Below, piece after piece: positions 8,935 through 17,911 of a stretch of 64,000 bases of DNA. Numbering within the stretch: the stretch's first letter is position 1; every line of letters starts with the position of its first letter. Both the position numbers and the translations under genes were made by a program. The notes under the pieces are model-generated. The model was given only the letters and a program-made list of their open reading frames with translations, ran no database searches and had not been told where the DNA came from. The DNA lies in NCBI GenBank assembly GCA_036479435.1, contig JAZGFI010000090.1, positions 14,846 to 78,845 of the forward strand, given 5' to 3'. The DNA comes from Planctomycetota bacterium. GTDB lineage: Bacteria > Planctomycetota > GCA-002687715 > DRQF01.

Positions 8935-10056
8935 TTAACCGTCTTCTTCGGGTTTCGGTGGTGACCAGTCGGTACCTTCCTTTTTCCACCAACTCCACCA
9001 TCGTTCGAGGCCTTTGCGGCGCCAGCGAACGCTCGAAGCGTGGCCCTCGGCGCCGACTTCTTGCCAGTCATAGATAGCGTCGCGCCAGTAGTCGTCGTAG
9101 TCGTCGCTGCGGCTCGCCGTTTCGGCCAGGGCCTGAACGATCGTCCAACCGCGCCGGGCATCATCCTTGTCGGCCAGGTCGAGACTCGTCATGGCGTTGA
9201 TGAGGTAAGGGATTGCCTTTTTGGGCATCGCGACGAGTGCGTCCTGTGCTTGGAGCGCCTTGCGGGTCGCATTGATGTCTTTGAGCGTCGTCACGAAGCC
9301 CTCAATGGCTTTCATTTCCTCTTCACTGGTCTCAGCGCTCGGGTCGAACGGTGTCAGCTCCATTGGGGGCTTCTTCGTTCGCTTTCTGGAATTTTTCTTG
9401 CTGGTCTTGGCAGCGTTGGTTTCACCCACGTCGTCGCCCTTGACCGCCGCTGTTTTTTCGCCATTTGACGCGGAGTCCGTTCCGCCTAGGAGGTCGCCGC
9501 TCTCATCGACGCCGAGGTCAGCACCACCTGTTTCTTTGTCCACCTCATTCTTGGCTGTGGTTTCCGTGGACTCGTTCGGCTCGTCGCCGCCTTGACTCCA
9601 AAGAAATGCGCCGACGACGCCCGCGACGACCAAGACTCCGAGGCTGCCGAGGATGAGGGCCATTGGCGCGCCATCGCCCTTGGGACGATGATGCGCGTGG
9701 CGACTAGAAACGCTGCCCTCTTGGACGCCCGTCTCACTTTTTTGGCGGTTTCGAGACCGACTGGCGCTGCGAGAGCTGCGACGGCTGGAACCTTTGCTCT
9801 TGGGGCGTTCGGCGGCCTCGCCACTTTCTTCGGCATGGTCACCGTTGCGGGATTTATGGCGCCTCGATTGAATAACGGGGGCTTTTCTTGCACCCGCGGC
9901 GGGCGACGGTTTGGCCAATCGGGATTCCCAGTCTTTGCCGAGCACCTTGCGCAGTACGAGGATCATGCCGCAGCCCGCGCAGTCGATTTTTCGAGTGCCT
10001 GCCACCGGAATGGCTTGGCTGTGTTTGCACTCGGGGCAGGTCAGTTTGTTACTCAC
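8935..10056 (-). CDS. Zinc-ribbon / single-TM protein with Lys-rich linker and conserved Trp-rich C-terminal domain (paralog A)
   Basis: N-terminus 'CPECKHS...CAGCG' is a 4-Cys zinc ribbon, followed by a long low-complexity S/R/K region and one TM helix (LILGSLGVLVVAGVVGAFLW). The C-terminal ~120 aa 'AIPYLINAMTSLDL...WTIVQAL...WWSWWKKEGTDW' is shared with the downstream gene. Confidence 0.6.
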   Translation of the reverse strand: MSNKLTCPECKHSQAIPVAGTRKIDCAGCGMILVLRKVLGKDWESRLAKPSPAAGARKAPVIQSRRHKSRNGDHAEESGEAAERPKSKGSSRRSSRSASRSRNRQKSETGVQEGSVSSRHAHHRPKGDGAPMALILGSLGVLVVAGVVGAFLWSQGGDEPNESTETTAKNEVDKETGGADLGVDESGDLLGGTDSASNGEKTAAVKGDDVGETNAAKTSKKNSRKRTKKPPMELTPFDPSAETSEEEMKAIEGFVTTLKDINATRKALQAQDALVAMPKKAIPYLINAMTSLDLADKDDARRGWTIVQALAETASRSDDYDDYWRDAIYDWQEVGAEGHASSVRWRRKGLERWWSWWKKEGTDWSPPKPEEDG

Positions 10057-10107
10057 TTGAGGTCTCCAAAGAAAGTCGAGAAAGGCGGCGGGGGAGAGGC
10101 AGTAAAC

Positions 10108-11376
10108 TCAGCCCTCGTTTTCCTCATCCTTTTTTAATTCGTCCCAGCTCTTTTCGTTGTAGTCGATGTCTTTTTTGACCCAGGTGGCGCCTTCAACTTT
10201 CCACCAACCAAACCACTGTCGCAGTGATTTGGTCCGTTCTTCGGGCGTTCCTTTGGTCATGCCGCCCATGCCGAGTCCCTGACGGGAGTTCCCCGGCGTG
10301 TAGCGAAAACTCTTGTTCGTCATTTCGCGCAGAGCCTGGATTAGCACCCAGGCCTTCTTCATGTCGGTCTTTTCGCTGTGATCTAGGGCGGCGATGGCGT
10401 TGAGAACGCCCGGGATCGCCAGCTTCCCGATTTGGATCATCTCGTCGCGAGACTGGTTGGCTTTTCTAATGTTGCCTTCGTCCAGGGTCGCGACGATGAG
10501 TTCGTTGACGCGCTTGCGTTCGGCCTCACCAGAGGCAATAGGCCAAGGCACGGGCGTGACATCGGCCTCGGGAGGGCCAACGAAACGGGGCTTTCTTTTC
10601 CTTTTTTCTTTGCCCAGTTTCGCACCGAAGTCTTTCTTTCGGCTCTTCTTTGAACCACCGGTTTTTAACTGCCGAAACTGCTCGTGTTGCACGCGCGTGA
10701 TGCGCCAAGCTTTGGGGTTTTGGGCGTCGATGAGTTCGTCGTAACCGTCCAAGAGCTCCGAGGTCAAGTTGATCTGAATCATCTTGCGGTTGCGGTCGTC
10801 TTTGACGAGAAAACCGACGAGGCCGTAGTCGCCGCGAACGACGTCGCGGTTCGGCGGGATGAGTCCTTTGTTGAAGTCCTCGATAAAGAACTTCTGCACG
10901 ACTTCGATGTACTCTTCGTCCATGATCTCAAAGAGATAGTCATTGATGAGCTTTCGTTTCCCGGCTTCATCGAGATTGGCGTAGCGTCTTTTTTCGCCCC
11001 AGTTGTTTTCGCCTGCAATGCGCCTGAACAAATAGTCCCAAGAGATGATCTTGGACATAATAGAGCTGTCATCGGTCGCCAAGGCCGTCATGAACTGGCC
11101 GGCGAGTTTTTCGGGAAGGGTACTCTCTTCGCCCGGTTTACGCGGTCTGTCTTTGCCGCCGTGATCAAGTTTTGGCGTTCGGTAGTTGTCAGAGGGATTC
11201 GAGTTCTTTGGCTTTTTGGGCTTATCTTCGCCGAGGGCGTAGATGACCATGAAAATGAAACCTACAAACAAGAGGGCGCCAAGGCTGACCTTGAGCGCGA
11301 GCGCATTGTCACGGTTTTTGGAAGAGTCCCCACGGTCGGGACTTTTGCGGCGGATTGCGGGGCGACGAGCGGCCAT
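10108..11376 (-). CDS. Single-TM protein with Lys-rich linker and the same Trp-rich C-terminal domain (paralog B)
   Basis: TM 'LGALLFVGFIFMVIYAL' and a lysine patch 'KKSRKKDFGAKLGKEKRKRKP'. C-terminus 'AIPGVLNAIAALDH...WVLIQAL...WFGWWKVEGATW' aligns with the C-terminus of 8935..10056. Start chosen at MAARRP (11376); the ORF extends to 11490. Confidence 0.55.
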   Translation of the reverse strand: MAARRPAIRRKSPDRGDSSKNRDNALALKVSLGALLFVGFIFMVIYALGEDKPKKPKNSNPSDNYRTPKLDHGGKDRPRKPGEESTLPEKLAGQFMTALATDDSSIMSKIISWDYLFRRIAGENNWGEKRRYANLDEAGKRKLINDYLFEIMDEEYIEVVQKFFIEDFNKGLIPPNRDVVRGDYGLVGFLVKDDRNRKMIQINLTSELLDGYDELIDAQNPKAWRITRVQHEQFRQLKTGGSKKSRKKDFGAKLGKEKRKRKPRFVGPPEADVTPVPWPIASGEAERKRVNELIVATLDEGNIRKANQSRDEMIQIGKLAIPGVLNAIAALDHSEKTDMKKAWVLIQALREMTNKSFRYTPGNSRQGLGMGGMTKGTPEERTKSLRQWFGWWKVEGATWVKKDIDYNEKSWDELKKDEENEG

Positions 11377-11577
11377 GATGCTCCTGTCATGAAGAAGGAT
11401 AAGCGTACGCCTTCGCGCTGCTTTGCGACGAGAAACGAGGGCGGAGTGGGATAATACCATTCCCAACGTGGGGGCGAATCGATGGTTCAATTAGGCCGCC
11501 CGTTCAAGGCAGGCGCGGTGGCCCGCGGTGGCTAAATGGATCAGCAAGCCGAGTTTCGGGGCCCCGGTCGGCCCGGG

Positions 11578-11621
11578 GACTGTCCTCTGTAGAGGACAGT
11601 CTGAGGTTCCCGGCGGGGACA
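11578..11621. promoter_or_regulatory. 11-bp inverted repeat GACTGTCCTCT-GT-AGAGGACAGTC plus third half-site GGGGACAGT in a divergent intergenic region; candidate operator
   Basis: Perfect palindrome read directly from the sequence. It sits in the ~400-bp divergent region between 11376(-) and 11786(+). Confidence 0.35.
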
Positions 11622-11785
11622 GTATGATGGGTAAATGCGAGCGATGGGCCTTGGGTCTCGGTGATCCAAAACCATTGTTTACATAGGTTTAAGGCTAAAA
11701 ATGTCCTTGCACCTGCCGCCTAAAACTTCGGCACGGGCTTTGTATACGTACTGTGTACCAGACAACGCTCCAAAAGGAGATCTCC

Positions 11786-14029
11786 ATGCCCCGTCCACTC
11801 AATACCATGCTCGCTACTTTGGTCGTCAGCGCCGCTTTGCTCGTCGCTGCCGCTAGCGACCTTTCGGCCCAATCGCGAGGCCGGTCCGGTCTGGGTTCTT
11901 CGGGCGCCACGCCAAGGGTCGCTCCGCGCCGCGCCCCGACTCCCAGAGCCGCGCCCCGACGTGCTCCCGCTCCGCGTCGTCAGGCGACACCGCGACGTGC
12001 CCCGCGTCCGCAAGCTAGCCCTCGTCGAGCTCCGGCCCCGCGTCCGCAAGCTAAACCACGTCGTGCCCCGGCTCCCAGAGCCGCGCCTCGCCGCGCTCCC
12101 GCTCCTCGTCGTCAGGCTACGCCTCGCCGCGCTCCCGCTCCTCGTCGTCAGGCTACGCCGCGCCGCGCTCCGCGTCCGCAATCTACACCTCGTCGTGCTC
12201 CGGCCCCGCGTCCGCAAGCTAAACCACGCCGCGCTCCGGCCCCCAGAGTGGCCCCCCGTCGTGCCCCGGCCCCGCGCCGCCAAGCGACTCCTCGCCGTGC
12301 GCCAGCGCCCAAGGCAAGCCCGCGTCGCGCCCCAGCTCCCAAGAGTTCACCGCCCCGTCGCACCCGCGCTCCCAAACTTGCTCCTCGGGCCTCGGCTCCG
12401 AAGATCAAGTCCGGTACGCGCCGATCCAGCTCTACGTCATCGAAGTCTCGAGGCTTGACGCGTACCAACCCGCCGCGTCTGGGCCGCTCGAGTAAGTCCG
12501 GTGGCCGTTCGAGCGCCAAGGCTCCTAGGCGCCAAGCGCGTCCGAGCTACCGCAACCAAGGTGTCACCCGTTACAAGCCCGCGCGCAAAAATTCGACTTT
12601 CAAGGGAATCGTTAAGAACAAGAGCTCTCGTTCAAAAGTTGGTCGCCGCGGCGTCGCCGGCGGTCGCAGTCCGGTGACCGGTGTGCGCAAACCCGCGTCG
12701 CCTCGCCTTGGCAAGTCGGCCAATCGCGCAACGAACGCAAACCGTCGGGGGTCCGTCAACGGTCTCAAGCGGGTCACACCGCGACCAGGTCGCTTGCGCA
12801 GTATTGCTCCCACCAAAACTGCGGCTCCTCGTGTCGCGAAGAATCCCAAGCGCCTCCAAGGCCGCGGCTACTTGCCGCCAGCCGCGAGTGCCGGTGTTGT
12901 TGTCGCCAGCGGTCACTCCGGGAGTCACTCAAGTCACAGCTCAAGCCTGGGGCTCGGATTCTTCTTCGGCGGCGGTAGTTTCGGATTCAACCTGAGTTAT
13001 GGATCAGGGCACCATTACTACGACCACTACAACCCCTATGCGTTTAGCTACGGCTACGGTGGCGGCCCTTGGTACACGAACAGCTATCTCCATTCGGCGG
13101 GCTACCGGCCCTATTGGAATCGCCACTACTACGGCCACCGTTTCTACCGAGGTCATCGCAGCTATTTTGGATTCCGACGCTTCAGTCGCTTTCACTTCGG
13201 ATTCAACTACTACCACCCCTACTCGCACTACAGCCCCTACCCTTTGTATCGCTCGAGTTACTACGAGCCCTATTATGTGTCGAGCTATGCTGCGGCGTAT
13301 CCGGCCTACCGGACGTATCACTACGTTCGCCGGCCCGCCTACTATGCGAGCGCTTCTTATGGTTCGAGCTACGGCGGCTGTGTTGAGTCAGTCGACCCCT
13401 ATGTCGAAGAAGAAGTCGCCATCGACATCAGCGAACTCGACGACGAAGACTATGAACTGAGCATTGTCACCACTTCGTTGGAGCTCGCTCCCAGCATTTC
13501 TTTGGGACTGTCGGAGCCGTTCATCGACGACTTCGCGCGCGATCTCAGCTACGACGAGTATCTCGCCTACGGCGAGGAAGCTCTTTTTAATGGCGACTAT
13601 CTTTCTGCGGCCGAGGCTTTTCGCCGCGCGGTGAATGCTAAGCCGCAAGATGACTACGCCCTGTTCCAACTCGGTACAGCTTTGTTTGGTGCGGGTCGTT
13701 ACCAGCTCGCGGCACGCATGATAGAACTCGGCCTTGACCAGAATCCCGCGTGGTTACACCGCCGTTTCAGCCTCGAAGACGTCTTCGCCAGCGTGACTGA
13801 ATTCAAGGCTCGTACGCAGGCCTTAGAGGGCTACCTCATCGATAGAGAAGGTGACAGCGAAGCTCGATTCTTGTTGTCTTACGTCTACTACTTCTCGGGG
13901 AACCTCTTCGGCGCGCGCAGTAACTTGCGGTTGCTAAAGACTAGTGGGTCGAAGATCGGCCATGTCGATGCGATGGTCGACGAAGCCGAGCGCCGTTTGC
14001 TTCAATTGCGCGAGCAGTACCAAAAATAG
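11786..14029 (+). CDS. Secreted low-complexity protein: signal peptide, ~18 tandem PRRAPAPR(Q/A) octapeptide repeats, a Ser/Arg/Lys-rich region, a Tyr/Gly/His/Arg-rich segment, and a C-terminal TPR-like domain
   Basis: RBS AAAGGAGA precedes ATG 11786. Signal 'MLATLVVSAALLVAAASDLSAQ'. The 24-nt period repeat encodes PRRAPAPR/RAAPRRAP. 'YYxxYxPYxxSYGYGG' is a Y-rich low-complexity region. The C-terminus 'AEAFRRAVNAKPQDDYALFQLGTALFGAGRYQLAARMIELGLDQNP' is TPR-like. Confidence 0.7.
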   Translation: MPRPLNTMLATLVVSAALLVAAASDLSAQSRGRSGLGSSGATPRVAPRRAPTPRAAPRRAPAPRRQATPRRAPRPQASPRRAPAPRPQAKPRRAPAPRAAPRRAPAPRRQATPRRAPAPRRQATPRRAPRPQSTPRRAPAPRPQAKPRRAPAPRVAPRRAPAPRRQATPRRAPAPKASPRRAPAPKSSPPRRTRAPKLAPRASAPKIKSGTRRSSSTSSKSRGLTRTNPPRLGRSSKSGGRSSAKAPRRQARPSYRNQGVTRYKPARKNSTFKGIVKNKSSRSKVGRRGVAGGRSPVTGVRKPASPRLGKSANRATNANRRGSVNGLKRVTPRPGRLRSIAPTKTAAPRVAKNPKRLQGRGYLPPAASAGVVVASGHSGSHSSHSSSLGLGFFFGGGSFGFNLSYGSGHHYYDHYNPYAFSYGYGGGPWYTNSYLHSAGYRPYWNRHYYGHRFYRGHRSYFGFRRFSRFHFGFNYYHPYSHYSPYPLYRSSYYEPYYVSSYAAAYPAYRTYHYVRRPAYYASASYGSSYGGCVESVDPYVEEEVAIDISELDDEDYELSIVTTSLELAPSISLGLSEPFIDDFARDLSYDEYLAYGEEALFNGDYLSAAEAFRRAVNAKPQDDYALFQLGTALFGAGRYQLAARMIELGLDQNPAWLHRRFSLEDVFASVTEFKARTQALEGYLIDREGDSEARFLLSYVYYFSGNLFGARSNLRLLKTSGSKIGHVDAMVDEAERRLLQLREQYQK
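11900..12330 (+). repeat. Intragenic 24-bp tandem repeat (about 18 copies, imperfect) encoding Pro/Arg/Ala octapeptides
   Basis: The visible periodicity is ccgcgccgcgctcccgctcctcgtcgtcaggctacgcct... A 187-aa antisense ORF (11720..12283) is an artefact of this repeat. Confidence 0.8.
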
Positions 14030-14057
14030 CAAGCAGTCAATCTTTTGGATGTGGACG

Positions 14058-14087
14058 GACGCCCTTGGGCGTCTGTTTGCAGTTTTG
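14058..14087 (+). terminator. Rho-independent terminator (GACGCCC-TT-GGGCGTC + TGTTTGCAGTTTTG)
   Basis: 7-bp perfect stem followed by a T-rich tract, directly downstream of the 14029 stop. Confidence 0.5.
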
Positions 14088-14122
14088 CACGTTTGGATGG
14101 GTGGTGAGTCGGCGGCGACCCA

Positions 14123-15091
14123 CTATGGTGTCGCGATCCAGGGGATACGAATCTCGCTTGCCACCACGATGTTCGTCTTAACCCTCATAGTCGCGCCGCT
14201 GAGATCCGCAGTTTTGACTCGGCCGGTGATGCTTGCCTTGATCACGCCGTTTTTCTCCTTGCCGATTTGCACTTGCAACAGGCGGTGTCCGGCGCTGTAG
14301 CTCGTAATCTCAATAGCCATGCCATCTCGATGCTGGAAGCTGAGTTCAAGCTCGACATCTTGAGTTGTGACTGATGCGTCATAGGGCAAGTGAGTTCGCG
14401 ACACCGAGATGATACCCCGCACCACGCCGACCAGGGGAATCTGGATGTCGCCGTAGGGATGCCTGGGGTCGCTGTTCAAAAGCAACTTGCTGCCGAAAGC
14501 CCCGAGGCGATGGTCTCCACGGAACGAGATTTCAATTTTCGCTTCCCCGGGGGAAGAGCCCGCAAGCTGGCCTCGGACGCGATCATCACCGGCTGGAATG
14601 TTGGTGATCTTGATGGGCGCCTCGCGGCGCGGTTTCACGGTGACAATGCGCTTTACGGTCTCGCCAAACTCGACATTGCCAAAGTCGACGGTCGCGGGCT
14701 CGAGAGTGTAGGGCTCTCGGAGAGTGCCCTCGAAACTGAGGACCAGTGGTTCCGCATTACTTTTGGCGTGGAGGATAATTGACTTTTTGAAGGGGCCTGG
14801 AGCCAAGTCCAGCCGAAGCGTTACCTCGAGAGTCGTCGAAGTGCCGGGTTTGAGATCCTTGGTGCTGAGTCGGGCCTTTGAGCAACCACAGGTGAGTTCG
14901 GTGCGATCGATCTTAAGCTCTGAGGACCCCGAGTTGGTGATCTTGTAGCGGACATCGAGGCGGGCACCGACCTCCAGGACGCCGAGGTCGTGATTTGGCA
15001 TGTCGCAGGCGAATCTGCCCGCGCCTTCATTGTCGCCGCATCCGACGGTGCACAGAACGATGAGGCCGATGGTAACGAAGAGCCTGTTCAT
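14123..15091 (-). CDS. DUF1573 domain-containing lipoprotein
   Basis: Signal/lipobox 'MNRLFVTIGLIVLCTVGCG'. 'HDLGVLEVGARLDVRYKITNSGSSELKIDRTELTCGCS' matches the DUF1573 signature (HDFG...N.G...L.I..V..SCGCT). Repeated beta-rich Ig-like segments follow. Confidence 0.65.
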   Translation of the reverse strand: MNRLFVTIGLIVLCTVGCGDNEGAGRFACDMPNHDLGVLEVGARLDVRYKITNSGSSELKIDRTELTCGCSKARLSTKDLKPGTSTTLEVTLRLDLAPGPFKKSIILHAKSNAEPLVLSFEGTLREPYTLEPATVDFGNVEFGETVKRIVTVKPRREAPIKITNIPAGDDRVRGQLAGSSPGEAKIEISFRGDHRLGAFGSKLLLNSDPRHPYGDIQIPLVGVVRGIISVSRTHLPYDASVTTQDVELELSFQHRDGMAIEITSYSAGHRLLQVQIGKEKNGVIKASITGRVKTADLSGATMRVKTNIVVASEIRIPWIATP

Positions 15092-15107
15092 CCCCTGAAT
15101 TCCCTGC

Positions 15108-15860
15108 TTGTTCAATGAAGAGAAGGCCACAATTGCCGGGTCCGATGGCGCCGTGGTAACCTGCGGGCGGACCCTGACGAATCCGATAGTGGGCGAAGCT
15201 TTGGCAACCCTGTCTGCGACCATACTAAGCCAAGCCGCTTGGGAACAACTTGAAGCGAATTGTGAACGCCTCGGTGGCCCGCATTCGCGCATCCGTCGTC
15301 GCGCTGACGGCAAGCTCATCAAGATCTTTCCACGGCGGAACGACTCGATGGCGAAGGTCGCCGCGCAGGCCCAAGATTTCGTCCGTAACTCCGCTCGTCT
15401 GCGCGCGCTCGGTTTTTCTTGCCCCGTTGTTGACGAGTTGATCCACGTCGACGAGTCTTTCGCCTTCGTGGTCTACACGCCAATTCCCGGTGATTCCTTT
15501 CGCGAGTGGGTCGAGCGCGAAGGTTCGGCTGAACTCGACCGGCTGCCTCAGTACTTTGCGAACTTGCATTGCGTCGGTGTTTACTTTCGAGGCGGCCATT
15601 TGGGCAATCTGGTGAGAGAGTCGGGCTCAGGAATTGGATTGATTGACTTCTCTGACGTGCGATTTGCCGGCGGCTCCTTGGGGCCTTGGAAAAGGGCGAG
15701 GAATCTTGCTCACTTACTGGGGCACCGTTTGGATGGCGAAACCATCAAGCGCTACGGCTATCGCCGCTTCATCGATGCTTACGCTGAAATCGCTGGTATT
15801 CGCGGATTTGCAAGGCGGCGTATGGCATGGTTCTTGCGGCGCCGCGTCGGGAAGTATTGA
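15108..15860 (+). CDS. Lipopolysaccharide kinase (Kdo/WaaP/InaA) family protein-like
   Basis: 'GVYFRGGHLGNLV' resembles the catalytic HxDLHxGN loop and 'LIDFSDVRF' resembles the (I/L)ID(L/F)xR/D motif of Kdo kinases. Assignment by motif only. Confidence 0.35.
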   Translation: MFNEEKATIAGSDGAVVTCGRTLTNPIVGEALATLSATILSQAAWEQLEANCERLGGPHSRIRRRADGKLIKIFPRRNDSMAKVAAQAQDFVRNSARLRALGFSCPVVDELIHVDESFAFVVYTPIPGDSFREWVEREGSAELDRLPQYFANLHCVGVYFRGGHLGNLVRESGSGIGLIDFSDVRFAGGSLGPWKRARNLAHLLGHRLDGETIKRYGYRRFIDAYAEIAGIRGFARRRMAWFLRRRVGKY

Positions 15861-15907
15861 ATCGCAGTTCGCTGTTATCATGAGTCCAGCGAGTGAGTGG
15901 AGCCTAA

Positions 15908-17911
15908 ATGCCTGCGTTCAAGATTGAGAGCGAGTATCAGCCGACGGGCGACCAACCCGCGGCGATTGCTGCCTTGTGCAAAGGCATCGAAAAAGGCGAG
16001 CGCGAGCAGACGCTCCTGGGGGTAACCGGATCAGGTAAGACCTTTACCATCGCTCACGTCATTCAAAAAGTGCAGCGACCAGCGCTCGTCTTAGCTCCGA
16101 ACAAAACCTTGGCGGCCCAGCTTTTCACCGAGTTCAGGGATCTTTTCCCCGATAATGCCGTTGGCTATTTTGTTTCCTACTACGACTATTTCCAGCCGGA
16201 GGCCTACGTTCCCTCTAGCGACACCTACATCGCAAAAGACTCGGCGATCAACGATCAGATCGACCGACTTCGGCATGCTGCAACTCATTCCCTCTTGACG
16301 AGGCGCGATGTCATCATCGTCGCGTCCGTGTCTTGTATCTACGGCATTGGTTCGCCTTCTTCCTACGCGACCATGAGTGTCGAGATCCGGCAGGACGAAG
16401 AGATGGATCGGGACGAACTGCTGCGGCGACTGATCACCATGCAGTATGTGCGCAATGATTTTGCGCCAAAGCGGGGGAGTTTTCGTGCCCGCGGTGATGT
16501 TGTTGAGGTCTTCCCGGCCTATTCCGATGATCGGATCCTGCGCGTGGAGCTTTTTGGCGATACGGTCGAGCAGATTGTCGAGATTGACGCCGTCACCGGT
16601 GAGGTTCTGCAAGATCTCCGCGCCATTGTGATTCACCCTGCCAGCCACTACGTGACGCCCCAGGAAAATCTCAAGCGGGCCATCGTCACCATCGACGCCG
16701 AAAAGGAAGAAGCGGTCGAGGCTTTTCGAAAACGCGGACGTCTGCTCGAAGCGCAGCGCCTGGAGATGCGAACCAACCTCGATCTTGAGCTTCTTCAGGA
16801 ACTCGGCACCTGTTCGGGGATTGAGAACTACAGCCGTCATTTGGATGGCCGCCAGCCCAGCACACCTCCGGCGACACTCTTGGACTTTTTTCCCGACGAC
16901 TTCATCACTTTCGTGGACGAGAGCCATGTCACCGTGCCGCAATCTGGTGGCATGTATAAAGGCGACCGCAGCCGCAAATCGACCCTGGTGGAACACGGGT
17001 TCCGGCTGCCGAGTGCTCTCGACAATCGCCCGCTTATGTTCGAGGAGTTTGAAAAGCGACGGAAACAAATCATCTACGTCTCCGCGACCCCCGGCGACTA
17101 CGAAGTGGCTCAATCCAAGGGTGTTACCGCCGAACAGATCATTCGACCGACGGGCCTTCTAGACCCCGAAGTGGAGATTCGCCCGGCGACCGGTCAGATC
17201 GATGACCTCTTGGGGCAGCTTCATCGAGAGATCGAACGCAAGGGCAAAGTCTTGGTGACGTCGCTGACGAAAAAGATGGCGGAGAACATCACCGAGTACT
17301 ATCGAGACCTTGGCCTACGCATCCGGTACTTGCACAGCGACATTGAGACTTTGGAACGTCACGCGATCATTCGCAGCCTGCGGCTCGATGAGTTCGATGT
17401 ACTCGTTGGCATCAACTTGCTGCGCGAGGGTTTGGACATCCCTGAAGTGACCTTGGTCGCCATCTTGGATGCAGACAAGGAGGGGTTTTTGCGGTCTCGG
17501 CGTTCTTTGATCCAGACCATTGGGCGGGCGTCCAGAAATGTCGATGGCCGTGTTATTTTGTTTGCCGACAAAAAGACCGACTCGATGAAGGCGGCGCTCG
17601 ACGAAACGGATCGGCGGCGCGAGATTCAACGGGCGCACAACAAAAAGCATGGCATCACGCCCACAACGATCAAAAAGAACGTGCAAGACTTGCTCGAGTC
17701 GGTGTTCAATGCGGACTACGTCACGATTGATATCTCGACCGACAAAGTGGAGACCAGCCGGAACCCGAGGGACCGTGAAAAGATCCCTCAGATTATCGAG
17801 GAGTTGCGCGAGCGCATGTTTAAGTATGCGCAAGAGACCAAGTTTGAGGATGCTGCCGACCTGCGGGATCAGATCAAACGCTTGGAGAAAGCGCAGCTGG
17901 AAGAGGTCTGA
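15908..17911 (+). CDS. uvrB: Excinuclease ABC subunit B
   Basis: '[14 protein letters not shown]', Walker A '[10 protein letters not shown]', the beta-hairpin region '[10 protein letters not shown]', helicase C motifs, and the C-terminal UVR domain '[15 protein letters not shown]'. Confidence 0.95.

What the first reader, a model, noticed from the sequence alone, without database searches (positions are those of the whole stretch)
11786..14029. Secreted protein with ~18 PRRAPAPR octapeptide repeats, a Tyr/Gly/His/Arg-rich low-complexity core and a TPR tail
This is an unusual tripartite architecture. The first part is a strongly cationic Pro/Arg/Ala repeat array encoded by a near-perfect 24-bp DNA tandem repeat (11900-12330). 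The second is an aromatic-rich segment ('YYDHYNPYAFSYGYGGGPWY…YYHPYSHYSPYPLY') reminiscent of phase-separating or adhesive sequences. The third is a folded TPR-like C-terminus. The repeat array is a likely hotspot for length variation by slippage or recombination. Divergently transcribed from two paralogous surface-protein genes.
Basis: seen in the sequence. Interest (0 to 1): 0.65.

Follow-up and report, generated by a model that had tools for sequence, protein, structure and literature searches.

The report
Exported Arg/Pro-repeat, Tyr-rich TPR protein
This is a real gene for a very positively charged, mostly disordered exported protein that ends in a folded TPR domain; it belongs to a conserved but undescribed family in uncultured Planctomycetota, and public annotation cuts off its signal peptide and repeats.

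Summary
The ORF at 11786-14029 (+) is real (747 aa). Several details were wrong. There are 13 PRRAP-type units (8 exact PRRAPAPR), not about 18. The period is 10 or 12 aa (30/36 bp, higher order 132/168 bp), not 24 bp. The DNA is not near-perfect: unit cores are 71% identical on average, and 7 different codings give 8 identical peptides. Only one adjacent 36-bp pair is identical.

The protein is one member of an unannotated Planctomycetota family: 70 clusters at E<=1e-30, though some of these are generic multi-TPR proteins. Members share a signal peptide, a cationic repeat region whose unit differs in every lineage, a sequence-conserved Tyr-rich core, an acidic linker and a TPR tail. AlphaFold2 models the tail at pLDDT 97-98 and leaves the core unfolded.

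In two genomes, including this one, NCBI's calls drop the signal peptide and repeats. A conserved palindrome and a sigma-54-like -24/-12 element lie upstream of the full-length start.

The function is unknown. My best inference is a regulated, exported, multivalent envelope or matrix scaffold.

The parts
11578..11601 (.). Perfect 11+11 palindrome GACTGTCCTCT-gt-AGAGGACAGTC. Candidate upstream activator (enhancer-binding protein) site.
   Evidence: It is unique in the 64-kb window, with 0 matches expected by chance. The core TGTCCYC-N4-GRGGACA lies 150-238 nt upstream of the start codon in 7 of 10 orthologous loci.
11729..11744 (+). Sigma-54-like -24/-12 element CGGCACGGGCTTTGTA (GG-N10-GT).
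   Evidence: It ends 41 nt before the ATG. It is one of two invariant blocks in the alignment of the upstream regions. All 10 close orthologous loci carry GG-N10-G[C/T/A] 37-89 nt before the ATG, and 5 of them have the canonical GG-N10-GC. The window's own copy departs from consensus at the -12 C.
11774..11779 (+). Shine-Dalgarno sequence AAGGAG, 6 nt before the ATG.
   Evidence: Read directly from the sequence.
11786..14029 (+). Full-length coding sequence, 747 aa. After removal of the signal peptide: 718 aa, pI 11.2, net charge +89, 105 Arg and 50 Tyr.
   Evidence: The public gene call (P0006, 524 aa, 'tetratricopeptide repeat protein') starts internally, after the repeats.
11786..11872 (+). 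Sec-type signal peptide (aa 1-29), predicted cleavage LSA|QS. No lipobox Cys and no twin-arginine motif.
   Evidence: Read from the sequence. The same n-h-c layout and AxA|Q(R) site occur in relatives.
11924..12349 (+). Array of 13 PRRAP-type units of 10 or 12 aa (PRRAPAPRAA / PRRAPAPRRQAT / PRRAPRPQAS / PRRAPAPRPQAK ...).
   Evidence: GC by codon position is 0.87/0.91/0.51, so the variation sits at in-frame third positions.
12086..12157 (+). Perfect tandem duplication of one 36-bp unit; the only identical pair in the array.
   Evidence: The short-read contig L006 begins at 12125, inside this duplication.
12350..12919 (+). Non-repetitive basic Ser/Arg/Gly/Lys-rich segment (aa 189-378), ending in a His/Ser patch (SGHSGSHSSHSSS).
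   Evidence: Net charge per residue is about +0.28 to +0.30 across most of it. An equivalent basic segment is present in every relative examined.
12920..13393 (+). Aromatic core (aa 379-536): a Gly/Phe hairpin-like motif SLGLGFFFGGGSFGFNLSYG, then a Tyr-rich stretch with conserved Pro, Tyr and Arg positions.
   Evidence: Composition. Sequence conservation. AlphaFold2 pLDDT stays below 55 even with 103 sequences in the alignment. No Pfam or PDB match.
13394..13531 (+). Acidic linker (aa 537-582, net -15), beginning with the conserved motif DPYVEEEV.
13532..14026 (+). TPR tail of about four helical hairpins plus a capping helix. The confident model begins near aa 569 (nt 13490).
10108..11490 (-). 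Divergent neighbour: a single-pass membrane protein. Its C-terminal ~150 aa are paralogous to those of the next gene.
   Evidence: It is syntenic with the target in L001, L002, L004, L007, L009 and L014, and absent in L010 and L011.
8935..10056 (-). Second paralogue: N-terminal CxxC...CxxC zinc ribbon, basic stretch, one transmembrane helix and the shared C-terminal domain.

Best explanation
The region encodes the full-length 747-aa precursor of an exported protein. It belongs to a vertically inherited family in Planctomycetota that has not been described; I saw one copy in each locus examined.

Shown: the protein has these parts in order.
- a cleavable Sec signal peptide;
- a long, intrinsically disordered polycation whose front part is a tandem array of Pro/Arg units;
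- a sequence-conserved Tyr/Gly/His/Phe-rich segment that is not predicted to fold on its own;
- a short acidic linker;
- a folded TPR domain of about 165 aa.

Inferred mechanism: the protein acts as a multivalent envelope or matrix scaffold.
- The cationic, polyproline-like array binds polyanionic polymers outside the cytoplasm, such as acidic polysaccharide, lipopolysaccharide, extracellular DNA or polyphosphate.
- The Tyr-rich core supplies aromatic contacts for self-association with the Arg-rich part, or for cross-linking.
- The TPR tail docks the assembly onto a protein partner.

Inferred regulation: expression is probably controlled rather than constitutive, from a sigma-54-type promoter with a conserved palindromic activator site.

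Evolution of the array: it grows and turns over by unit duplication, while selection keeps the peptide composition rather than the DNA sequence.
For: GENE AND START
- The ORF, Shine-Dalgarno site and signal peptide are all present.
- Eight identical PRRAPAPR peptides are encoded by seven different DNA strings, and variation is concentrated at in-frame third positions.
- Conserved promoter-like elements lie upstream of this ATG, not upstream of the annotated internal start.

FAMILY
- A profile search gives 70 clusters at E<=1e-30.
- Twelve full-length members share the layout: signal peptide, N-region of pI ~12 and net +18 to +99, core with 14-24% Tyr, linker of net -4 to -15, and a tail of 158-165 aa.
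- The repeat unit differs in every lineage: RRSTPAPRPQQRPQ, PRVSRPSA, TPRVRPSTPSVRPQN, GGSRSS.
- The named members are all Planctomycetota MAGs.
- The gene sits in conserved synteny upstream of uvrB.

FOLD
- The tail reaches pLDDT 97-98 and the core stays below 55 with 103 sequences in the alignment.
- The tail is TPR by profile comparison and by fold.

ASSEMBLY
- The long-read contig is identical to the window over the part retrieved (9455-17029), and the short-read contig from 12125 to 17029.

SIGMA-54 IN THE PHYLUM
- Sigma-54 regulons and the TGGCAC-N5-7-TTGCT consensus have been reported for Planctomycetota (PMC12316311).
Against: - There is no experimental or contextual evidence for any ligand, location or partner. 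The mechanism rests on composition and analogy.
- The start of the mature protein is positively charged (QSRGRS...). In E. coli this disfavours Sec export, so the topology is inferred and not shown.
- The window's -12 element reads GT rather than the canonical GC, and no rpoN or enhancer-binding-protein gene lies in the window.
- AlphaFold2 gives no confident docking of the DPYVE motif or the core onto the TPR tail.
- The synteny may reflect only vertical inheritance. The neighbouring paralogues are missing in some lineages.
Confidence: 0.45

Rival explanations
1. The protein is a periplasmic TPR adaptor or chaperone for an envelope machine, such as polysaccharide export or outer-membrane assembly. 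Only the TPR tail would be functional in a specific sense. The repeats and the Tyr-rich part would serve as a flexible spacer or tether with no binding role of their own.
For: The tail is the only confidently folded part. Weak NCBIfam similarities are to envelope TPR proteins: NlpI, PilW, BcsC and PrsT. In L010 the gene lies directly downstream of an Alginate_exp-type porin gene.
Against: The Tyr-rich core is conserved in sequence at specific Pro, Tyr and Arg positions, which a passive spacer would not need. The strong positive charge of the N-region is kept across lineages even though the sequence turns over completely. There is no lipobox, porin domain or consistent machinery gene next to the gene.
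Confidence: 0.2
2. The hydrophobic N-terminal segment is an uncleaved N-out/C-in membrane anchor. The polycation, the Tyr-rich core and the TPR tail would then face the cytoplasm and bind nucleic acid or polyphosphate at the membrane.
For: The positive-inside rule applies (established knowledge): the 350 aa after the hydrophobic segment carry net +99, and the first 18 residues of the proposed mature protein carry +3. The gene sits in a conserved neighbourhood with lexA, uvrB and uvrC.
Against: The hydrophobic stretches are 13-16 residues long, which suits a signal peptide and is short for a membrane helix. They are followed by a conserved small-x-small|Q site in more than 12 relatives. The palindrome is absent upstream of lexA and uvrB in the same loci, so it is not an SOS box. 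In the window the gene is not in an operon with uvrB, because the next gene downstream is on the opposite strand.
Confidence: 0.1
3. The public annotation is right. The real product would be the 524-aa protein starting near nt 12455, and the repeat array would be non-coding DNA or part of another (antisense) gene.
For: NCBI's record calls a 524-aa protein here. PGAP called a truncated gene plus an antisense ORF in the closest relative.
Against: The frame is open from a start with a Shine-Dalgarno site and a signal peptide. Synonymous-site variation keeps the sense-frame peptide constant. At least 22 relatives were called full-length with signal peptides. The conserved promoter-like elements lie upstream of the long ORF. 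The truncated product would start in the middle of a disordered basic segment with no signal.
Confidence: 0.05
4. The array is a polyprotein precursor that is cut into Pro/Arg-rich antimicrobial peptides.
For: The tandem PRRAPAPR units resemble eukaryotic proline-rich antimicrobial peptides in composition. This rests on my own knowledge and was not tested.
Against: There are no regular processing sites or acidic spacers. Relatives replace the unit with quite different sequences (PRVSRPSA, GGSRSS, PQPQGRSNPT). The array is always fused to the conserved core and TPR tail.
Confidence: 0.03

Closest known systems
Generic bacterial TPR proteins (Pfam clan TPR; e.g. consensus TPR, the OGT TPR region, MamA, NlpI)
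   Same: The C-terminal ~165 aa form TPR-like helical hairpins. This is supported by a profile hit to consensus TPR at E 4e-21, by Foldseek top hits that are all TPR proteins, and by weak NCBIfam hits to MamA and NlpI.
   Different: Only about four hairpins are present. Single-sequence Pfam scores are below every gathering cut-off. Foldseek rmsd is 9-14 Å, so no close structural relative exists. None of these proteins carries the cationic repeat region or the Tyr-rich core.
TonB / TolA periplasm-spanning proteins
   Same: Both have an extended, charged, proline-rich repeat segment located outside the cytoplasm.
   Different: The protein has a cleavable signal peptide instead of an N-terminal membrane anchor, and a TPR tail instead of a TonB C-terminal domain. 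There is no ExbBD or TolQR context.
Secreted structural and adhesive repeat proteins of eukaryotes (plant extensins and glycine-rich wall proteins; mussel foot protein-1). Analogy from my own knowledge.
   Same: Both have a signal peptide, basic Pro-rich tandem decapeptide-scale repeats and Tyr-rich stretches that can cross-link or adhere.
   Different: There is no homology. I have no evidence for hydroxylation, DOPA or a peroxidase or tyrosinase partner. These proteins have no TPR tail. The analogy is compositional only.
FUS-family 'sticker and spacer' phase-separating proteins (Tyr-rich prion-like domain plus Arg-rich RGG domain). Analogy from my own knowledge.
   Same: Arg-rich (105 Arg) and Tyr-rich (50 Tyr) disordered segments are segregated within one chain. 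A distant subfamily even carries GGSRSS/RGG-like repeats.
   Different: The FUS family is eukaryotic and nuclear or cytoplasmic. This protein is bacterial and exported. Phase separation has not been tested.
Bacillus spore-coat repeat proteins CotG and CotC/CotU. Analogy from my own knowledge.
   Same: They are basic tandem-repeat and Tyr-rich proteins that build a cross-linked proteinaceous layer.
   Different: There is no sequence similarity. They belong to a different phylum and compartment, and have neither a signal peptide nor a TPR domain.

Membership tests
TPR repeat proteins | Sequence match to TPR repeat profiles | tested here: met
   A profile built from the family alignment hits consensus TPR proteins (E 4e-21, 3 stretches), OGT (3e-13) and MamA (8e-8). 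All hits fall in profile positions 180-330. The single sequence reaches only sub-threshold Pfam scores (TPR_16 at 24.3 bits against a cut-off of 32.7).
TPR repeat proteins | Stacked antiparallel helix pairs forming a right-handed solenoid | tested here: met
   The AlphaFold2 tail has pLDDT 97-98 with paired helices at model residues 210-367. The best Foldseek PDB hits are all TPR proteins (prob 1.00, E ~1e-4), although rmsd is high.
Sec-exported proteins with a cleavable signal peptide | Basic n-region, 10-16-residue hydrophobic h-region, and small residues at positions -3 and -1 | tested here: met
   The window sequence is MPRPLNTM-LATLVVSAALLVAAA-SDLSA|Q. The same layout occurs in 12 full-length relatives and in 22 of 102 gene calls. 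This was judged by inspection; no dedicated predictor was available.
Sec-exported proteins with a cleavable signal peptide | Actual export and cleavage | not testable with these tools
   This needs reporter fusions or N-terminal sequencing. The positive charge just after the predicted site is atypical for E. coli substrates.
   Tandem Repeats Finder reports periods of 30, 36, 66, 132 and 168 bp at 69-82% matches. Mean pairwise identity of the unit cores is 0.71, and only one identical 36-bp pair exists.
Sigma-54-dependent promoters | -24 GG and -12 GC separated by 10 nt (TGGCAC-N5-TTGC) | tested here: inconclusive
   The window has CGGCACGGGCTTTGTA, i.e. GG-N10-GT, with the -12 C replaced. Five orthologous loci carry the canonical GG-N10-GC at the same position. 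The consensus is taken from PMC12316311.
Sigma-54-dependent promoters | Upstream activator site about 80-150 bp from the promoter | tested here: met
   The palindrome lies 116-142 nt upstream of the -24 element in the window, L002, L004, L007 and L014. Binding by an activator was not tested.
TonB/TolA | N-terminal membrane anchor and a C-terminal TonB/TolA domain | tested here: not met
   There is no Pfam match other than TPR at E<=1, and the N-terminus has signal-peptide features.
Phase-separating Arg/Tyr 'sticker' proteins | Disordered Tyr-rich and Arg-rich segments | tested here: met
   The composition fits. The core has pLDDT below 55. The N-region was not modelled; its disorder is inferred from composition.
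Phase-separating Arg/Tyr 'sticker' proteins | Demonstrated condensation | not testable with these tools
   This needs purified protein.

The most novel reading that the evidence does not exclude
This would be a bacterial, exported counterpart of eukaryotic Arg/Tyr 'sticker' proteins. After Sec export the polycationic repeat region and the Tyr-rich core would drive coacervation with anionic envelope or matrix polymers. The result would be a condensate-like or cross-linked layer (matrix, holdfast-type adhesive or periplasmic gel). The TPR tail would anchor this layer to a protein partner, and a sigma-54 activator would switch it on.
Probability: 0.15. Interest if true: 0.8.

Novelty: new variant of a known kind. 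Interest (0 to 1): 0.5.

Why it matters
- **An undescribed family.** It is widespread in uncultured Planctomycetota, a phylum whose envelope biology is unusual and poorly understood. It combines a signal peptide, a polycationic repeat region, a conserved Tyr-rich segment and a TPR domain, and I found this combination in no Pfam or NCBIfam model and in no paper.
- **A systematic annotation error.** In every case I checked against the DNA, standard gene callers dropped the signal peptide and the repeats, or split the gene, or called an antisense ORF. In databases these proteins therefore look like ordinary cytoplasmic TPR proteins.
- **A concrete regulatory handle.** The conserved palindrome and sigma-54-like element can be tested directly.
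- **If the scaffold or condensate reading holds.** It would give a bacterial, extracytoplasmic example of Arg/Tyr-driven assembly.

Tried and rejected
- **Alignment query on genome contigs** failed because no conserved stretch was long enough. The single-protein query found one Planctomycetota MAG.
- **Two metagenome scans for strain variants of the array** found nothing: a DNA 25-mer and a protein query. Copy-number variation therefore could not be assessed.
- **The full-length 747-aa product** is not on record in any assembly.
- **Literature searches** for a described family returned nothing relevant.
- **Sigma-70 promoter and terminator scan** was uninformative.
- **Rfam and tRNA scans** found only two distant tRNA genes.
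- **The larger neighbour gene** has no PDB relative, and neither neighbour has a significant Pfam hit.
- **LexA box reading of the palindrome** was rejected. The motif does not occur upstream of lexA or uvrB in the window or the loci.
- **Activator or rpoN gene inside the window:** none found by motif search.
- **Second family copy in the window:** none.
- **Intramolecular docking of the DPYVE motif into the TPR groove:** AlphaFold2 gives no confident signal for it.
Full report

The six-frame ORF list shows one long open frame at 11753-14029 on the + strand.

The product starts with a typical Sec signal peptide, MPRPLNTM / LATLVVSAALLVAAA / SDLSA|QS. It has no lipobox cysteine and no twin-arginine motif.

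The repeat description needs correcting.
- There are 13 units that begin PRRAP (aa 47-188, nt 11924-12349). Eight of them read exactly PRRAPAPR.
- The units are 10 or 12 residues long. They follow an A-B-C-D pattern (PRRAPAPRAA, PRRAPAPRRQAT, PRRAPRPQAS, PRRAPAPRPQAK) repeated about three times.
- Tandem Repeats Finder therefore reports periods of 30, 36, 66, 132 and 168 bp at 69-82% matches, and no 24-bp period.
- At the DNA level the 24-nt cores are on average only 71% identical. The eight identical PRRAPAPR peptides are written in seven different ways.
- GC content by codon position in the array is 0.87/0.91/0.51, so variation sits at in-frame wobble positions.
- Only one adjacent pair of units is identical (12086-12121 = 12122-12157), which marks a recent 36-bp duplication.

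The array is therefore real and far beyond chance. It is conserved as peptide, not as a near-perfect DNA repeat.

**2. Is it an assembly artefact?**

The window is identical over 9455-17029 to a 3.99-Mb long-read contig at 41x coverage. A short-read contig from a different ENA assembly record (57x) begins at window 12125, exactly inside the perfect duplication, and is identical from there to 17029. The short-read assembler broke at the repeat, as expected. The half of the array it does cover agrees base for base, and the frame is intact. I found no strain variants, so copy-number variation could not be tested.

**3. Anatomy of the protein**

After the signal peptide the parts are as follows.
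- **Polycationic region, aa 30-378.** Net charge +99 and pI 12, with Arg 22%, Pro 18% and Ala 17%. The repeat array is followed by a non-repetitive Ser/Arg/Gly/Lys stretch and a His/Ser patch.
- **Aromatic core, aa 379-536.** Tyr 22%, Ser 16%, Gly 13%, His 8%, Phe 8%.
- **Acidic linker, aa 537-582.** Net -15, beginning DPYVEEEV.
- **Tail, aa 583-747.**

The mature protein would be 718 aa with pI 11.2, net +89, 105 Arg and 50 Tyr.

The tail is a TPR domain.
- Single-sequence Pfam and NCBIfam hits are all TPR but below threshold.
- A profile of the family hits consensus TPR proteins at E 4e-21, OGT at 3e-13 and MamA at 8e-8, and only with its tail positions.
- AlphaFold2 models the tail at pLDDT above 90 with 19 sequences and at 97-98 with 103 sequences.
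- The best Foldseek matches in the PDB are all TPR proteins, though none is close (rmsd 9-14 Å).

The aromatic core stays below pLDDT 55 even with the deeper alignment, and it matches nothing in Pfam or the PDB.

**4. It is one member of a family**

A word-indexed search with the tail found only five relatives. A full HMMER scan with a profile of core plus tail found 70 clusters (at 50% identity) at E<=1e-30. Most of the top hits cover both core and tail, but some are generic multi-TPR proteins that match only the tail.

I read the DNA of several loci, and the same layout appears every time: signal peptide, basic repeat region, His/Gly patch, Tyr-rich core, acidic linker, TPR tail. In twelve full-length members the ranges are as follows.

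| Part | Range across 12 members |
|---|---|
| N-region | pI about 12, net +18 to +99 (the window's is the most cationic) |
| Core | 14-24% Tyr |
| Linker | net -4 to -15 |
| Tail | 158-165 aa |

The repeat unit differs in every lineage: RRSTPAPRPQQRPQ (L001), PRVSRPSA (L003), TPRVRPSTPSVRPQN in the closest relative (L014, 55% identical in core plus tail), and PTPRAQPQPSQRVQ, TRPSISRP and PQPQGRSNPT in others. A more distant subfamily has GGSRSS repeats followed by an acidic DDWDDYWDD stretch.

In contrast, the core is conserved as sequence: SLNFGLFxGGGxWGxGLGY, then RFHFGxxYYxPY..YxPYPxYR..YYxPYYV, then DPYVE.

All members that carry a source name are Planctomycetota MAGs, annotated as 'hypothetical' or 'tetratricopeptide repeat protein'. 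I found no paper on the family.

**5. Public gene calls are wrong**

The window's own product is on record only as a 524-aa 'tetratricopeptide repeat protein' that starts after the repeats (P0006). The closest relative was called as 589 aa plus an antisense ORF over its array. P0002 was called as 287 aa out of 744. Only 22 of 102 family gene calls begin with the signal peptide, but every complete N-terminus has one, ending in small-x-small|Q.

**6. Context**

The order lexA, nadB-like, hflX, two minus-strand paralogues, the target, then uvrB (and uvrC) is conserved in the window's sub-lineage.

The two divergent neighbours share a C-terminal domain of about 150 aa (31% identity, E 5e-17). Each has one transmembrane helix after a basic N-terminus, and one has a zinc ribbon. 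They are absent in L010 and L011, where the target still lies next to hflX or uvrB. The only constant association is therefore positional and may simply reflect vertical inheritance. The window holds a single copy of the family.

**7. Conserved elements upstream of the gene**

The 295-bp divergent spacer holds a perfect 11+11 palindrome at 11578-11601. It is unique in the window. Its core TGTCCYC-N4-GRGGACA lies 150-238 nt before the start codon in 7 of 10 orthologous loci.

A second invariant block, CGGCACGG..TTTGT at 11729-11744, resembles a sigma-54 -24/-12 promoter. All ten close loci have GG-N10-G[C/T/A] 37-89 nt before the ATG. Five of them have the canonical GG-N10-GC, while the window has GT.

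The palindrome sits 116-142 nt upstream of this element. That is the usual geometry for an enhancer-binding protein site (consensus and sigma-54 use in Planctomycetota: PMC12316311).

The palindrome is not upstream of lexA or uvrB, so it is not an SOS box. No activator or rpoN gene lies in the window. I treat sigma-54 control as likely but unproven. In either case these elements mark the long ORF's start as the real one.

**8. What it most likely does**

Shown: the gene is real and conserved, it carries a signal peptide, and it encodes a largely disordered polycation joined to a conserved aromatic segment and a TPR domain.

Inferred: the protein is exported and acts as a multivalent scaffold in the envelope or matrix.
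- The cationic proline-rich array binds polyanions.
- The Tyr-rich core mediates self-association or cross-linking.
- The TPR tail docks to a protein partner.

Three observations fit this reading. Charge and composition are retained while the repeat sequence turns over. The core is conserved at specific positions. The promoter looks regulated.

The reading remains an analogy to extensins, mussel foot protein-1, spore-coat repeat proteins and FUS-type Arg/Tyr proteins. No ligand or partner is known. I give it 0.45.

Rivals:
- a TPR adaptor whose disordered part is only a spacer (0.2);
- an N-out/C-in anchored cytoplasmic polycation, suggested by the positive-inside rule but contradicted by the short hydrophobic region and the conserved cleavage site (0.1);
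- the truncated public annotation being correct (0.05);
- a precursor of Pro/Arg-rich antimicrobial peptides (0.03).

**9. Verdict**

The finding is an undescribed, mis-annotated protein family in Planctomycetota with an unusual domain combination and a conserved regulatory module. Its function is unknown.

I rate it a new variant of a known kind (exported TPR and repeat proteins), with interest 0.5.

Noticed in passing
window 11578-11601 and 11729-11744; same positions in L002, L003, L004, L007, L009, L014: A conserved palindrome (TGTCCYC-N4-GRGGACA) lies 116-142 nt upstream of a sigma-54-like GG-N10-G[C/T/A] element, in front of the family's start codon. This looks like an enhancer-binding-protein site plus a sigma-54 promoter. 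In the window the -12 reads GT instead of GC.
   Followed up: yes
window 11786-12454; L014 5316-6020; L001 8545-9234; L012 417-977: Public gene callers (including NCBI's) truncate these genes after the repeat array, split them, or call antisense or alternative-frame ORFs over the array. The signal peptide is lost, so the proteins look cytoplasmic in databases.
   Followed up: yes
window 11924-12349: Codon choice in the array is unusual. CGT makes up 51% of Arg codons (11% in uvrB plus the nadB-like gene) and GCT 47% of Ala codons (14% there). Third-position GC is 0.51 against about 0.65-0.69 elsewhere. This may offset the ~90% GC of codon positions 1 and 2, or it may diversify the units.
   Followed up: partly
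window 12125 (start of contig L006): An independent short-read assembly ends exactly inside the only perfect 36-bp duplication of the array. This is an example of a repeat-induced contig break.
   Followed up: yes
L012 278-2461: A distant subfamily has GGSRSS/RGG-like tandem repeats and an acidic DDWDDYWDDYWDD stretch in front of a Trp/Tyr/His-rich core and the same TPR tail.
   Followed up: partly
L010 6033-7634: In one lineage (GCA_044222185.1) the family gene lies directly downstream of an Alginate_exp-type outer-membrane porin gene. This is a possible hint at a link to anionic polysaccharide export, but it was seen in only one locus.
   Followed up: no
window 12860-12919 (aa ~375-390) and the equivalent position in relatives: A short His-rich patch (SGHSGSHSSHSSS here; HHHHHY, HGHHHG and HRGDKDHNH in relatives) precedes the aromatic core in many members. 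It could be a metal-binding or pH-sensing site.
   Followed up: no
window 15108-15860 (+): A 250-aa ORF between the DUF1573 gene and uvrB has no Pfam match at E<=1e-5. It is called as a gene in the public assemblies (L005, L006).
   Followed up: no
window 8935-11490 (-): The two paralogous single-pass membrane proteins share a C-terminal domain ending in a W..WW(K/E)..G..W motif, and neither has a significant Pfam hit. Only the larger one (10108-11490) was searched against the PDB, with no relative found. They are co-located with the target only in one sub-lineage.
   Followed up: partly
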